Shown here: piece after piece, positions 42,135 to 59,366 of the stretch
Layout: the number at the start of each line of letters is the position of its first letter
Position numbering within the stretch: the first letter of the stretch is position 1
Source of the DNA: Podarcis liolepis
Lineage: Eukaryota
DNA: 64,000 bases
Direction: 5' to 3' (one strand)
Assembly: GCA_965112155.1 (NCBI GenBank)
Contig: OZ218099.1
Translations under genes and position numbers: made by a program
Notes under the pieces: model-generated
Told to the model about the DNA's origin: nothing
Databases searched by the model: none
Seen by the model: the letters and a program-made list of their open reading frames with translations, nothing else

Positions 42135-42209
42135 TTTGCTGTGTTGCTGACACTGATCTTCCTGGTGGAGATTGCAGCTGCCATTGCTGGCTACATCTAC
42201 AAAGATGAG
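42135..42209 (+). CDS. CD63: CD63 coding exon 3 (FAVLLTLIFLVEIAAAIAGYIYKDE)
   Basis: AG/GT boundaries, 75 nt, third transmembrane helix. Confidence 0.96.
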
Positions 42210-42324
42210 GTAAGAGATACTTCTGGGTCCCATTGTTGTGGGTAAAGGGTGGTTCTGCTGTTATCTCCAGATGTTTGCTGCAACCCCCTGGAGCAGTGGT
42301 AGCCAACATGGGGGTCTCCAGAGG

Positions 42325-42845
42325 TTTTTTTCTTCCATATTTTTTATTGATTTCAGAGGTTTTGCAAATTTACTTAAATTTCAATATGTTTTACTTAGAA
42401 TTTTGACTTTTTATTTTTTTTATTCAATTTTCTGTTTTACAATTTAGGATATTCATTTAGACAACTTCAAAATATCAGTGACTTCCCTTCTCTTTCCATG
42501 GTTCATTTTGCATAGCATAAACCACTGCCTGTTTTATATAAACTAAACCATTCAGTATTTCATTTTCACTTCCATCAGAACTTATTTACACTGTTGAATT
42601 TATCTTAACGTTGCCAGCGTTTTCAAGTGTACACAATTTCCCCCATATATTCAATAAACATTTTCCAATCTTCTTTAAATGTATTTTCTTCTCGTTCTCT
42701 TATTCTATATGTTAGATCCGCAAGCTGCGCATATACCATCAGTTTAAGTTGCCATTCTTCTTTGGTTGGGACCTCGCTCGTTTTCCATTTTTGGGCTAAC
42801 AAAACACAGGCCGCTGTAGTGGCATACATAAATAACCTTTTTTAA
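42325..42845 (-). mobile_element. L1 3' fragment (ORF2 C-terminus and 3'UTR)
   Basis: YATTAACVLLAQKWKTSEVPTKEEWQLKL..EDWKMFIEY; T-rich tail on +. Confidence 0.8.
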
Positions 42846-43950
42846 AATAAAATTTACTTCCCACCCTTACCTCCATGATGTTTTTATTCCCACCCTTTAT
42901 CTACTGCTTTATATAACATATTTTTATCTGATACAATTATCCTCAGTTTCACTTATCGTTGTTTTCTTTCCGCTGCTTGTAATTCAAACCCTGCCCACTT
43001 TTTTTAAACCAGAATAACTTGTTAAAATAAAGTTTCTTTAGTCACATGCAGACACTTGTTATCAAGATTCAGTCATCATAGTTCAAGTGTCAGACAATTA
43101 AACAAATCACTTCTTCCAAACATGGCACAAGAAGTTGACCCCATCAAAGCAGACCACAAAATTTAAGCGTTTGTTTGATGTTCTTCCATACATGTTGAGC
43201 TTCTTCAGGTAGCAGTCTTATTGAGTGAAATAATAGAAGCATTATTCTTGTATGTGTGTGTTTTCTCAATGTCTGTTAAATGTCAGATTTGATCCAAAGG
43301 CTTCCTCTTGCTTCCATTTGCTCCTGGCGGGCTTACGCCAGGTCCAGCTTCTTCTGCGTGACCGCCAGCTGGTCCTGCAGCCGCTTCTTCTGCCAGTCGA
43401 GGTAGCGCCTCCGCGCCCTGTTTGCCTGCCAACCCACCAGCAGCCCCGAAGCGAAGGCCAGCACTGCCACCTTCACAGAGCGCTCTGAGCGCAGCACCAT
43501 GTTTCCCCCCCCCGCCCACGTTTTAATTTGACTGTAGCAGTTCTTCAGAGGGTCTCCACTCTTCCATAAACAGTTTGTCACTTTGATCTGCTATTTCACA
43601 ATTTCCACATAGTCCATTAAACTTTTGAAGTCATTCCTCTTTGGTTAGTACCTCTCCTCCTTTCCATTTCTGCGTGTACAGGATTCTGGCGGCTGCTGCT
43701 GTTGCATAAATGAATAGCTGAACCATCCTTTTTGGGACCTCCATCCCTATTATCCTTTGGTAGAAAAGCTTCGGGGCTTTTGGGAATAACCAACTTGAAT
43801 TTTTTTCTTCAATTCATTATGTATCATTTCCCAAAAGTCTTTAGCGTTTTATACATGTCCACTACATAGGATAAAATGACCCTTCAGCATGTTTGCATTC
43901 CCAACATTTATTTGACACATTCTTACACATCTTAGCCAGTTTGTTTGGTC
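42846..43950 (-). mobile_element. Second L1 3' fragment, split by the MTLN retrocopy
   Basis: CWECKHAEGSFYPM*WTC zinc-knuckle remnant; ..SQIKTWAG|FEL reads through when the insert and one TSD are removed. Confidence 0.75.
43333..43500 (-). pseudogene. MTLN: Mitoregulin (MTLN/MOXI/SMIM37) processed retrocopy with open 55-aa ORF; whole insert about 43004-43509
   Basis: MVLRSERSVKVAVLAFASGLLVGWQANRARRRYLDWQKKRLQDQLAVTQKKLDLA* closely matches recalled mitoregulin; 15-bp TSD (13/15), TT|AAAA site, short A-run. Confidence 0.9.
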
Positions 43951-44328
43951 AGCAGGTGATTTTTAGCTAGAACATCCCTCGCTTCTGCCATTGGCCCTCC
44001 TGGATGAGGTTGATGAGAGTTGAGCGTCCCAGCAACAAATAGAAGTTGTATGTTGGTCACACCTGCTCTAGAGAGAGATAGGCAGAGGGAATATCTAAAG
44101 AGAAACACTTTTTAAAAAAATCACTGGATTGACCCTGAGATTGAAGACCATCACTAGAGAATTCATCCAGAAGTTCCTCATGTTCTCACAAGGGGAGGAA
44201 CTTCCTCAGGCACGCTTAATTTACCCATGTTTTTGGTCTTGGCTAAATCTTAAGGAGGCTTAGTCACCCTCATCAGATGTCCTAAATTTAATTCTTCCCT
44301 TTCCTTTTCTGCTTGCTTCCTCTTCCAG

Positions 44329-44424
44329 ATCAAAACGGTGATTGACAAAGAAATCAGGGCAGAAATAGCAGTCTACAAAAGTAATAAAGAAGTTAAGAAT
44401 TTGTTGGATGACATGCAGCAGAAG
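44329..44424 (+). CDS. CD63: CD63 coding exon 4 (IKTVIDKEIRAE...LLDDMQQK)
   Basis: Long pyrimidine tract with cAG, AAG|GTGAGT donor, 96 nt. Confidence 0.94.
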
Positions 44425-55615: not shown

Positions 55616-55763
55616 AGAGAGAGAGAATGTGAGGAAATGAGGAAAGCAGGAGGAAAAGGGATGGAAGAGAATACAAGGAAGCAAAGGGCTATGAGAATCA
55701 GATGTGGGAAACCTGACCGCAACTATGGGGTGAGCACAAGCAAAGCCCTACCTGTTCTCCTAC

Positions 55764-56022
55764 CTGAGGCTGTCGGAGAAGGCCTCAACGGTGTATTTGG
55801 AAACACAGTAGCCACCGCCATTGGCTGAGAGGCGACCCAAGACGCTGGAGGTGTTGACCACTCGGCCACGTGCCCGTTTGAGCAACGGTAGGAAGGCCAG
55901 AGATACCTCGATGACCCCAAAGGTGTTGACAGACATGACCTTGCGGTAATCCTCCACGCTCATCCATTCTGTGGGGCCAATGGGGTTGGCCACACCTGCG
56001 TTGTTCACCAGGCCAAAGAGCC
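55764..56022 (-). CDS. RDH5: RDH5 coding exon 2 ([11 protein letters not shown]...[15 protein letters not shown])
   Basis: NNAG and catalytic YxxxK (YCVSK); [10 protein letters not shown] is characteristic of RDH5; 259 nt. Confidence 0.96.
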
Positions 56023-56362
56023 CTGGAGAGGGAGAATTATTGGGGAGGAGGAAAAGGGACAGATCACACCTTGGCTTTATAGCATCCTGTGTTTTTCGCT
56101 GTGGGGAAAAAAAGATGCTACGCGAAGTTGCCTTATAATGAGTCAGACTGTTGTCTCAAATGACCTAGTACAGTGTACCGTGCTTGCCAGCGTCTCTCCC
56201 AAAATTTCAGGTGGAAATTCAGCCTTACTACCCCTTTTTAACGGGTGATATCAAAGATTAAGCCTGAGATGTTTTGTATGCAAAGGTTTATTATGGGGGA
56301 TAAAATGCTGAGTTGTTACCAACATCTTGTAGCCGAAGCTTAGAGATCTGGGTTTAAGAGTA

Positions 56363-56579
56363 TAGTCATACCTTGGATCTCGAATGCCTTGGCTCCCGAA
56401 CAAATCGGCTCCCGAACGATCGAAACCTGGAAGTGACTCTTCTGGTTTCCGAACAATTTTTGGAAGCCAAATGTCCGATGAGGCTTTCGCGGCTCAGAAG
56501 CCGTGCTTTGGTTTTCGAATGTTTTGGAAGTCGAACAGATTTTTGGTACGGATTCCATTTGACTTCCAAGGTATGAGAG
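56363..56579. mobile_element. Tc1/mariner MITE
   Basis: TIR remnants TCATACCTTGGA / TCCAAGGTATGA with TA flanks. Confidence 0.7.
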
Positions 56580-57163
56580 TATACATTATTCTATCTCACT
56601 TCCCTACCTGTAAAATGGGTATAATTGTGACCTATGTTGGGATCGCAATATAATGAGTACACCACACTGTAAATTAAAGCTAGTAATAATAAGCTGCAAC
56701 TCGAGCATTAATGAGCACATGTCGTGCATGCAGAACGACCTAGTTTCAGTCTCTAGGAGACTGGGGAAATACTCCTGTCTGAAACAATGAAAAGCCACTG
56801 CCAGCCATTGTTGACAGTATTGGGCTATCTGGATCAATGGTCCAATGGAGCAACAGCAGCAAAGCAGCAATTATACTAGCAGTTGTGCTGCTGTCTTAAT
56901 CCTTAAGCACACTGGTGCCCAGCCAGTTAAGCTGCCCTGTGTTTTTGAGTAACGCAGTCTCAAAACCCTGCTCTTTTCAAGAGCTTTTCCTGTTCTGGCT
57001 AGTACTGCATTGGCTGAAAGCTGCAGTTTTAGAAAGTTGACTTCAGTGTCCAGAACTTTGACTTTTCTCCTCCGTGTTTTCTGTAGAAGCACAACACACA
57101 CTCAGACCTGACTCACCCCACTGCCCCCCACCCTCCGGATCTCTACCGGGGCGAGAGACTCAC

Positions 57164-57479
57164 CTTTCTCTCCCACTTCACCTTTCACCCACTGCACGGC
57201 TTTAGAGATGCTCTCGGAGTTGGTGACGTCCAGCAGGATGGTGCGCAGGTTTGGCGAGCTGGACCGCTGCAGGTTATCAGCCCCCTTCTGGGTTAGGCAA
57301 CCTGCCAGCACCTGAAAGCCCTTCTTGTCCAGGCGCTTGGCCAGCATGTTCCCGAAACCCGTGTCGCAGCCTGTGATGAAGACATACTTGTCCTTGTAGG
57401 AGCTCAACGTCTGCCGGTCGCGCAAGAACCACACCACAATCCAGAGGATACTGAAGAGCAGCGCATAGCAACACAACAT
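57164..57479 (-). CDS. RDH5: RDH5 (11-cis retinol dehydrogenase) first coding exon (MLCCYALL...TGCDTGFG...GEK)
   Basis: Hydrophobic N-terminal anchor, LRDRQ.L, SDR TGxxxGxG; acceptor at 57500-57501, G|GTGAGT donor; spliced CDS is 963 nt (320 aa); convergent with CD63 as in mammals. Confidence 0.95.
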
Positions 57480-59366
57480 AGTAGAGTCTCGACGAAGACC
57501 TGCAGGGTAAGGGAAAATGGGCAAGGTGGGCTGAGCACAAGTAAGTGCTGAATTCTGCTTTTTGTTTTCAGGTCAACAAGGAAGATCCATCTGTCCTAAT
57601 CACATAGGCCAGGCTCTAGTGGGAAACCTGGTGTGTTCCTGGACTACATCTCCTATTACCCTACACCAGGGTTTCCAGTTGTGTGTGGTTTTTTTGGACT
57701 ACAGCTCCCATCATCCCTGACCACTGGATGATGGGAGTTGTAGTCCAACAGCTGGAGGCCCATGTTTGGGAAACCCTGTCCTAGATCATTGGCTGTACTG
57801 GAGGGCAGGAGATTCCCAATCCCTGAGAATCAGTAGGCTTCTGAATCTAGAACGAAGCTGTCTGTTGATATTGTTCTACTCTGCTGTTACCTAATCAGTC
57901 ACGTTAATCACTCTTGGGAGATTCTCAACCCTGGCCTTTGGCAGCTAAGGTATTTTGTTTTGTGAGGTCCACCTCTTTGGCTGAATTTATATCATTTTGT
58001 AATGGTTTAACTTGTTTTTTAAAATGTCGCTGTTTATCTGTTTTTATACAGGTATATACAGTAATGTTGTTACATAACCCATTCTTGGGCCTTATGGTGA
58101 AGGGCCAGTAAGAAATACATAGAATAGATTGTCCTTTCTATATTTTGAGGTAATAGGAAGAGATGATGAGGAAACAAACAAATGCTTTAATTAATCCTCA
58201 ACATATTTTAACCCATTTTAGGCTCTTCCAAAGAGGTAATTGTAAACGAACCAGCACACTAAGGGCCAAACTAAACGTAATGCTACATTTTTCACCTCAT
58301 GTGGCGAGTATTTTATTTTTTAAAAACAACAGCAAATAACTGGTACTGAGGCATCCTTGGTGGATTGGGAACATAATGTGGGAGGAAGGGAGATCTAATA
58401 ACACTTCCTCCTAAATGGAGGTGAGGGAACGTGACCTAACCAGGTCTAGGAATACAACTCTGTGATCTTCACCCCTCCATGCATTAACTAGCTTTAAGCT
58501 TGTTATTTATATTTGACAGCAGTTTCCCATGTGGTTTAGCTCTGAACTGGTCTGGAGGGTCGAGGGAAGACCATTCTGTGTGGCAAGCAGAAATGCTTAT
58601 GCTGATGGATTGATTGTATTCGTGTGACATTCAGTTGCACCCATTGTGCATGTAGTCTTAGGTTTCCTGTGGACATGATAAGTTACAGCATCTGGACGAA
58701 CTCTGCTCAACACAGAGATGGAGAAGCTACAAGTCTCAGGGGAGCCAGGGATTGGGAATCTTCCAGATCAAATCCTGCGACTTGCAGTGCTCTCATGAGG
58801 AGTCAGCCTTGTCCTTGTATATATATCACCACTTAACTCTCTGAGGTAGATGCAAGCAAACTCTCTCCAGAGGTATTGCATCTAGCGGGAGAATTTGGCA
58901 GTGCAGTCCAAGAGCAGGACCTGGTTGTTCTCACAGCTCTAAGCAGGGGCTCATACACACATTTTACGCCACACATTCCTCTACATCCTTCCTGCTCTAG
59001 CAATTGCCATGGCGACCTGCCCTAAACTAAGCCACAAGCCTGGGTGTGACTGAGATTAGATGGGATAACAACAGCAGCAGCAGGTTTCCAACTTCGTGTC
59101 TTAGTTCTTTGGACAAACATAGGCATAATGTAGGGTTGTACTCTTTTATGCAGATATATTTGAGGCACAGAGCAAAAACCTCTTAAGTTTTAAAACGGGC
59201 TAATTAATACAGACTCGTCGCAATAGAATATTAATATACTTTAAGCCGGGGGTCTATACAGTTGTTGCTAGACTACAAGTCCAGTCATCCCTGGCTGGAG
59301 CTGATGGGAGTGGAAGTCCAATAATATCCCTCCTTAGGTAATATTAACATGTCGTAGCGAATAGAG

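What the first reader, a model, noticed from the sequence alone, without database searches (positions are those of the whole stretch)
42989..43524. Mitoregulin (MTLN) retrocopy with an open ORF, antisense within a CD63 intron
Seen in sequence: a minus-strand ATG (43500) to TAA (43333) encodes 55 aa matching the mitochondrial micropeptide mitoregulin (AFASG..GWQANR.RRRYLDW..RLQD.LA.TQKKLDLA). It is followed by about 330 nt of UTR-like sequence and a 7-nt A-run, and flanked by AAAACGTGGGCGGGG (43524-43510) and AAAAAGTGGGCAGGG (43003-42989) at an L1-type TT|AAAA site. The abrupt GC-to-AT shift at CCAG|GAG just after the stop may be a spliced junction. Relative to recalled human MTLN (56 aa) it lacks one residue in the hydrophobic segment and has Q for R (CAG, consistent with CpG decay), hinting at neutral drift, though many CpGs and the frame survive. 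Inference: a fairly young processed pseudogene or possible retrogene that annotation pipelines would probably miss; it implies germline expression of MTLN.
Basis: partly seen in the sequence, partly recalled or inferred. Interest (0 to 1): 0.7.

Follow-up and report, generated by a model that had tools for sequence, protein, structure and literature searches.

The report
Silent mitoregulin retrocopy in CD63 intron
An intron-less DNA copy of the lizard's mitoregulin messenger RNA sits backwards in a CD63 intron with its reading frame still open, but the real gene lies on another chromosome, the RNA reads sampled match that gene, and the copy is likely an ordinary decaying pseudogene.

Summary
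The feature is real, and it is an ordinary processed pseudogene. The 55-aa ORF is mitoregulin (Pfam MTLN, E 9e-25). The parent is a two-exon gene at G000:C3:107.096 Mb, next to an NPHP1-like exon; the copy lacks its 688-nt intron (junction 43328|43327). The 15-nt duplication is a true target-site duplication: other copies of the surrounding old L1 fragment carry the motif once. The insert is at the same place in DNA runs of 4 of 4 other organisms laid, so it predates their split. Against its 60-aa parent the copy lost 5 residues (12-nt and 3-nt in-frame deletions at repeats). It took 6 replacement and 5 silent changes (omega 0.6, range 0.18-2.1) while the parent took none and one, and its poly(A) signal decayed. 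In two RNA runs (156 and 1312 reads laid) the diagnostic sites read the parent's letter almost throughout, and the copy's own 5' end has no cover; tissues are unknown. An open frame is expected by chance (about 0.3-0.4). One oddity: a truncated second copy on C19 shares the decayed poly(A) signal, a weak hint that it came from this copy.

The parts
43510..43524 (-). 5' copy of the 15-nt target-site duplication, opening at a TT|AAAA site
   Evidence: the base at 43513 that differs from the 3' copy matches it in runs X2 and X11
43501..43509 (-). remnant of the parent's 5' UTR (7 nt before the ATG match exactly); no parental promoter carried along
43333..43500 (-). open 55-codon MTLN frame plus TAA; 12-nt deletion near 43492 and 3-nt deletion near 43460 against the parent
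43327..43328 (-). exon 1 / exon 2 junction; the parent's 688-nt GT-AG intron is absent here
43006..43332 (-). copy of the parent's 3' UTR, 14 substitutions in 317 aligned exon-2 bases
43033..43038 (-). decayed poly(A) signal (AAGAAA; AATAAA in the parent), derived in the copy and shared with the C19 fragment
42999..43005 (-). 7-nt A-run, of which 5 nt lie inside the 3' duplication
42989..43003 (-). 3' copy of the target-site duplication
43525..43948 (-). decayed 3' end of an older L1-clade ORF2 (host element, part upstream of the insert)
42860..42988 (-). continuation of the same L1-family element downstream of the insert
42600..42843 (-). separate, younger L1-clade 3' fragment (other copies 90-93% alike); 42600 is only the edge of the query
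42135..42209 (+). CD63 exon upstream of the host intron
44329..44424 (+). CD63 exon downstream of the host intron
   Evidence: AG and GT ends; no Pfam hit on its own

Best explanation
This is an intron-less copy of the spliced mitoregulin mRNA lying antisense in a CD63 intron inside an older L1 fragment, likely pasted there by L1 reverse transcriptase and likely silent and drifting, with its frame still open by chance. Shown: parent on C3, intron loss, target-site duplication, single motif at uninterrupted family copies, presence in four other organisms, lineage-specific decay. Inferred: L1 endonuclease nicked the TT|AAAA site and target-primed reverse transcription copied the mRNA to within 7-9 nt upstream of the ATG in a germline or early-embryo cell of a common ancestor; having no promoter it is read only passively, on the wrong strand, as part of CD63 pre-mRNA; the two deletions arose by slippage at 12-nt and 3-nt periodic repeats, which keeps them in frame.
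For: Parent: G000:C3:107096235-107097433, two exons, 688-nt GT-AG intron 5 nt after the stop. Only 2 matches over the Pfam cut-off in the genome, parent and this copy. Parent protein is identical to database mitoregulin entries, has a CpG-island upstream (o/e 1.05 against 0.25 upstream of the copy) and an exon 14 kb downstream whose best PDB match is nephrocystin 1. Empty site: 20 of 25 printed rows (33 loci given; four pairs of rows are one place each) match both flanks, and in e.g. L032, L033, L034, L046, L049 the left flank runs into the right across one copy of the motif. Insert bridged at both junctions in 4 of 4 DNA runs laid. Polarised: copy 6 replacement + 5 silent, parent 0 + 1; 7.3 replacements expected if neutral, P(6 or fewer) 0.29; omega 0.60, 0.18-2.1, rejects 0.1 (2dlnL 7.98), not 1 (0.68). 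The R-to-Q change hits a column with R in 39 and K in 1 of 40 homologues. RNA at six coding diagnostic sites: X24 44/44, 41/41, 44/44, 42/42, 44/47, 36/36 parent letters; X22 949/949, 950/954, 952/957, 955/955, 693/694, 431/434; depth 0 at 43473-43607 in both. Chance of an open frame 0.27-0.44 under assumed frameshift rates.
Against: Both coding indels are in frame; given two indels that has a chance of 0.02-0.11 if repeats are ignored, and only 4 of 8 short repeats in the parent CDS have an in-frame period, though the longest (8 nt, period 12) is the one deleted. No frameshift in the coding part of 4 of 4 other organisms, but they add few independent changes, and up to 1, 1 and 2 substitutions in runs X2, X7, X6 were not listed, so a stop there is neither shown nor excluded. 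The omega range reaches down to 0.18, so moderate constraint is not excluded. RNA: only 2 raw-read runs, 12% and 6% of each read, tissues unknown, one species label; no intronic CD63 background was seen either, so low expression would be missed (95% upper bound on the copy's share 6.6% in X24 and 0.3% in X22). The C19 fragment shares one derived base with this copy.
Confidence: 0.88

Rival explanations
1. It is a tissue-restricted functional retrogene making a shortened mitoregulin variant, for instance in testis, driven by a promoter recruited from the L1 fragment or intron upstream.
For: ATG, good start context, stop and frame intact; both indels in frame; frame without gaps of frameshift length in 4 of 4 other organisms; the Trp needed for self-association in human Mtln (PMC11732159, passages) and the basic tail are kept (net charge +6 against +7); omega point estimate 0.6.
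Against: Six replacements against none in the parent; R-to-Q and V-to-L are seen in none of 40 homologues; hydrophobic span shortened by one residue in this genome and three others but not in X11; P0027, the presumed orthologue, shows two more replacements and no Met (protein only); poly(A) signal decayed; no copy-specific reads in 2 of 2 runs; upstream CpG o/e 0.25.
Confidence: 0.05
2. It is non-coding but active: as CD63 pre-mRNA carries about 500 nt antisense to MTLN mRNA, the excised intron could pair with the parent's mRNA or yield small RNAs that tune it, or the copy was once transcribed in sense enough to seed the C19 fragment.
For: Antisense position in a host gene and 91-93% identity to the parent; C19 fragment shares the derived AAGAAA base at 43036 that parents in this genome, X22 and X20 lack. 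Regulation of parents by retrocopies is a reviewed theme (PMC8071448, search listing only).
Against: No reads with the copy's letters on either strand and almost none in the flanking intron; at 43088 the C19 fragment sides with organisms G and H against this copy and the parents, and at 43099 it keeps the parent's letter; its tail starts at 43019, 13 nt earlier than this copy's.
Confidence: 0.06
3. It is the relocated, only functional MTLN gene, or an assembly artefact.
For: None beyond the open frame.
Against: Intron-containing parent intact on C3 and supported by the RNA reads; both junctions bridged by contigs in four independent DNA runs from three studies.
Confidence: 0.01

Closest known systems
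L1-mediated processed pseudogenes (retrocopies), as catalogued across vertebrates including squamates (VGP Phase I, PMC13320880, passages)
   Same: Continuous match across a parental exon-exon junction, far from the parent, target-site duplication at TT|AAAA, 5' end cut just above the ATG, A-rich 3' end; that paper reports that about 10-50% of retrocopies keep coding potential and only a fraction of those show selection.
   Different: Tail is vestigial (about 2 nt outside the duplication); it sits inside an older L1 3' end within an intron; it is shared by several organisms, whereas that paper finds about 70-98% of retrocopies outside mammals, birds and turtles species-specific among its (order-level) sample.
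Mitoregulin (MTLN, LINC00116 product; Pfam PF22002)
   Same: Family match at 86.7 bits; single hydrophobic segment, Trp and basic C-terminal half kept.
   Different: 55 aa against 60 aa in the parent and most squamates; carries residues seen in none of 40 homologues at three columns; no evidence of expression.
Antisense intronic retrocopies exapted into host genes (Baertsch et al., PMC2584115, passages)
   Same: Retrocopy inserted in the antisense orientation inside a host gene.
   Different: No sign of exonisation into CD63: no reads with the copy's letters and no joints (the CD63 exons were outside the stretch laid).

Membership tests
Processed pseudogene (L1-type retrocopy) | Intron-containing parent elsewhere in the genome | tested here: met
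   G000:C3 two-exon gene
Processed pseudogene (L1-type retrocopy) | Precise loss of the parent's intron | tested here: met
   exon 1 and exon 2 matches abut at 43328|43327; two substitutions lie in the 5 nt before the junction
Processed pseudogene (L1-type retrocopy) | Target-site duplication with single-copy empty site | tested here: met
   13/15; motif once in paralogous L1-family copies. An orthologous empty allele was not found: all 4 DNA runs laid carry the insert
Processed pseudogene (L1-type retrocopy) | Endonuclease-type TT|AAAA site | tested here: met
   sequence at 43526-43521; that this is the L1 endonuclease preference is recalled
Processed pseudogene (L1-type retrocopy) | Untemplated poly(A) tail | tested here: inconclusive
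   about 2 A's outside the duplication, and the parent's DNA has three A's at that place
Processed pseudogene (L1-type retrocopy) | Non-functional: neutral evolution or disablement | tested here: inconclusive
   no stop or frameshift; omega 0.60 (0.18-2.1), compatible with 1, not with 0.1
Functional retrogene | Own transcription | tested here: not met
   no copy-specific reads in 2 of 2 raw RNA runs, tissues unknown, partial reads
Functional retrogene | Purifying selection (omega significantly below 1) | tested here: not met
   2dlnL 0.68 against omega 1 on 11 changes; low power
Functional retrogene | Open reading frame kept in orthologues | tested here: inconclusive
   no frameshift gaps in 4 of 4 runs; 4 substitutions at most are unlisted
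Functional retrogene | Translation or protein product | not testable with these tools
   needs Ribo-seq or proteomics
Mitoregulin family (PF22002) | Score over the curated cut-off | tested here: met
   86.7 bits against 27
Mitoregulin family (PF22002) | Mitochondrial localisation, cardiolipin binding, self-association | not testable with these tools
   properties from abstracts and passages of PMC13019689 and PMC11732159
Host gene CD63 | Tetraspanin domain and C-terminal GYEVM motif | tested here: met
   PF00335 on 4 of 6 exon peptides given; GYEVM before the stop; motif per PMC7704260. No named-orthologue search was run

The most novel reading that the evidence does not exclude
The copy is, or was, transcribed in the lizard germline: it seeded the second, truncated copy on C19 (shared decayed poly(A) signal) and makes a shortened 55-56-aa mitoregulin variant that co-assembles with the normal protein in sperm or oocyte mitochondria, which would be a microprotein retrogene born inside a dead L1 in a housekeeping intron.
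Probability: 0.06. Interest if true: 0.55.

Novelty: new member of a known kind. Interest (0 to 1): 0.2.

Why it matters
As read here it matters little: it is one more retrocopy. It is of practical use in two ways. It warns that a 55-codon frame can stay open for a long time without selection, so an open microprotein ORF is weak evidence of function and can seed a false gene model (probably P0027). And the insert, its 3-nt deletion and the C19 fragment are clean presence/absence markers for lacertid phylogeny. If germline transcription and a daughter copy were shown, it would be a rare case of a microprotein retrogene in a reptile.

Tried and rejected
Relocated gene: rejected. Idea that the parent gained 4 residues: rejected, 60 aa is the squamate norm. 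Idea that C19 shares three derived states with the copy: two of the three (the 5-nt stretch at 43109-43113 and 43091) proved to be changes in the parent. A joint skipping the insert in X7 (42995 to 43521, side 24 letters) is taken for a paralogous L1 copy, not an empty allele, since the same run bridges both junctions; not proven. Promoter scan is for bacterial promoters and says nothing here. Pfam gave no family for the L1 ORF2 tail; the PDB search did. Protein atlas gave no answer. No remaining 5' part of the C19 copy in 10 kb upstream and no clean duplication around it. The tally includes four 3' UTR sites whose state in the copy of organism F was not listed, so the report uses only the six coding sites. 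No paper on an MTLN retrocopy appeared in the listings (20 of 58 listed; 15 of 290 listed); listings only, so this is a weak negative. No structure was predicted.

Full report
Observation. The minus-strand frame 43500-43333 is open and gives 55 aa that match Pfam PF22002 mitoregulin at E 9.4e-25. The two 15-mers at 43524-43510 and 43003-42989 agree at 13 of 15 bases; 29 of 2,009,010 pairs of 15-mers at least 100 nt apart in the intron do as well, and this pair brackets the parent-matching stretch. The host gene is a plus-strand tetraspanin (PF00335 on 4 of 6 exon peptides) ending in GYEVM, the CD63 lysosomal motif according to passages of PMC7704260. The copy lies antisense in the intron 42210-44328.

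Parent. A DNA search of the own genome gave 4 matches: the window, two pieces on C3 and a 131-nt piece on C19. The C3 pieces are two exons parted by a 688-nt GT-AG intron that begins 5 nt after the stop codon. The C3 protein has 60 aa and is identical to database entries named mitoregulin of Podarcis; 60 aa is the usual squamate length. C3 has a CpG-rich upstream region (o/e 1.05) and, about 14 kb downstream, an SH3 exon whose best PDB match is nephrocystin 1 (E 1.5e-15); that MTLN neighbours NPHP1 in mammals is recalled. The family search found 3 places, of which only C3 and the window pass the cut-off.

Insertion site. Both flanks are repeats. Translated, they match the tail of an L1 ORF2 from elsewhere in the genome, which in turn matches human LINE-1 ORF2p (E about 1e-13). 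Of 33 family loci given, 25 rows had a right-flank hit and 20 of these also a left-flank hit (four pairs of rows are the same place); in copies such as L032, L033, L034, L046 and L049 the left flank runs into the right across one copy of the duplicated motif. So the 15-mer is a true target-site duplication, and the copy landed in the 3' end of an older L1 whose family members are about 70-85% alike. Only 7-9 nt of 5' UTR came along. The end of the 5' duplication resembles the parent's 5' UTR, which fits junction microhomology (recalled mechanism). Five of the seven A's belong to the 3' duplication, so the tail is vestigial.

Age. The run search listed 24 runs; 14 hold half or more of the words, under six organism labels. 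I laid 4 of them (organisms B, E, D, F; three studies). Each has a contig across the 5' junction (43299-43578 or further) with 4, 1, 4 and 5 other letters and one across the 3' junction. The 12-nt deletion is in all; the 3-nt deletion is absent in F, which also keeps the parent's letters at 43496 and 43465. RNA contigs of organisms G and H differ from both the copy and the three parents seen (this genome, X24, X22) at 43254, 43088 and 43081, while those three parents share changes at 43411, 43234, 43150 and a 5-nt loss that the copy, G and H lack. The simplest reading (inference) is insertion after the split from G and H and before the parents diverged. On the copy's own line I count 6 non-CpG changes in 317 UTR bases, about 2%. 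No absolute date was computed.

Selection. Against the parent the coding part has 12 substitutions and two in-frame deletions. Polarised with the homologous proteins and the RNA letters, 11 fall on the copy (6 replacement, 5 silent; 6 are CpG transitions) and 1, silent, on the parent. With CpG, transition and transversion classes kept apart, 7.3 replacements are expected if neutral; omega is 0.60 with a range of 0.18-2.1, which rejects 0.1 but not 1. The R-to-Q change hits a column holding R in 39 and K in 1 of 40 homologues; V-to-L is in none of 40. The chance that 11 such changes spare the start and make no stop is 0.73, and with an assumed 0.5-1 frameshifts expected the frame stays open with chance 0.27-0.44. 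Against neutrality: both indels are in frame (0.02-0.11 given two indels). Both lie on repeats of period 12 and 3 in the parent, the former the longest of 8 short repeats, of which 4 are in frame. P0027, a 51-aa UniRef entry without Met, has the copy's L, Q and V, keeps both leucines and adds two more replacements; I take it for a gene model on an orthologue of this copy, but did not see its DNA.

Expression. Two raw RNA runs under F's species label were laid at 85% likeness: X24 (bulk, about 12% read, 156 reads laid) and X22 (single cell, about 6% read, 1312 laid). At the six coding sites where F's copy is known to equal this one, the parent's letter was read in 44/44, 41/41, 44/44, 42/42, 44/47, 36/36 and in 949/949, 950/954, 952/957, 955/955, 693/694, 431/434 reads (overlapping reads, not independent). 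Depth is 0 over 43473-43607, where only the copy could lie, and 38 and 935 reads leave the copy at 43463 with the parent's sequence. Upper bounds on the copy's share are 6.6% and 0.3%. Limits: tissues unknown, X22's alleles differ from X24's, and no intronic background was seen. Upstream of the copy CpG o/e is 0.25, and its poly(A) signal has decayed to AAGAAA.

The C19 fragment. It is 131 nt of 3' UTR, 98% like the window copy and 93% like the parent, preceded directly by a SINE and followed by an A-rich tail starting at the place of 43019. Two of its three shared states with the window copy are parent-side changes. The third, the AAGAAA base at 43036, is absent from the parent here, from 14 of 14 X22 reads and from H; G does not cover it. 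But at 43088, a CpG, C19 sides with G and H, and at 43099 with the parents. A daughter copy needs a repeated CpG loss; independent copies need a parallel transversion or a transient parental allele. One site each way: unresolved, I put the daughter or conversion reading near 0.3.

Comparison. It meets the tested hallmarks of an L1-type processed pseudogene and fails the two testable marks of a retrogene, with low power. Passages of the VGP paper (PMC13320880) report retrocopies in all 579 assemblies, 10-50% with coding potential and a minority of those under selection, so an open frame is common. Passages of PMC11732159 say Mtln self-associates through a Trp that the copy keeps, which is the only route by which an expressed variant could matter. 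No listing or 54 names an MTLN retrocopy; I read listings only and opened no supplements, where retrocopy tables (VGP, RCPedia) might list it. Earlier findings of this scan held nothing on this sequence and one other retrocopy inside an older LINE in this genome (unchecked).

Verdict. Real, correctly named, ordinary: a new member of a known kind, interest 0.2.

Noticed in passing
G000:C19:8698426-8698556 (-), L004:1501-1631: Second, 5'-truncated MTLN 3' UTR copy abutting a SINE, with an A-rich tail; shares the decayed poly(A) signal with the window copy but an ancestral CpG base with organisms G and H.
   Followed up: partly
window 43323-43327, parent acceptor at L003:2363: The parent appears to use two splice acceptors 4 nt apart in its 3' UTR intron (4 letters left out in 31 of 47 X24 reads, 6 of 119 X22 reads).
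   Followed up: partly
L071:7968-8603 (+), about 1.1 kb upstream of the MTLN parent: Intron-less HMG-box (HMGB-type) sequence with acidic tail split over two frames: likely another processed pseudogene.
   Followed up: partly
P0027 (UniRef A0A670HQ02) and P0065 (A0A670K3W4): Two extra database mitoregulin models for one species: one carries the copy's residues and lacks Met, the other differs from the parent only at the N-terminus; possible false gene models.
   Followed up: partly
run X7, window 43012-43173: Summed contig depth 51-56 against 8-16 for single contigs; organism E may hold more copies of the MTLN 3' UTR. Depth of contigs is no copy number.
   Followed up: no
window 55763-57572 (-): Exons of a short-chain dehydrogenase (PF00106), RDH-like, tail to tail with CD63; that RDH5 neighbours CD63 in mammals is recalled.
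   Followed up: partly
window 42600-42843 (-): A second, younger L1 3' fragment directly downstream of the host L1, with many copies 90-93% alike.
   Followed up: partly
L068:7100-L069:3700: LTR-retroelement-like stretch with long open frames about 7-14 kb downstream of the MTLN parent, among the NPHP1-like exons; label by eye only.
   Followed up: no
one search list: Several 'mitoregulin-like' entries in bats and ground squirrels (P0020, P0031, P0051, P0057, P0059); these may be independent retrocopies or duplicates.
   Followed up: no
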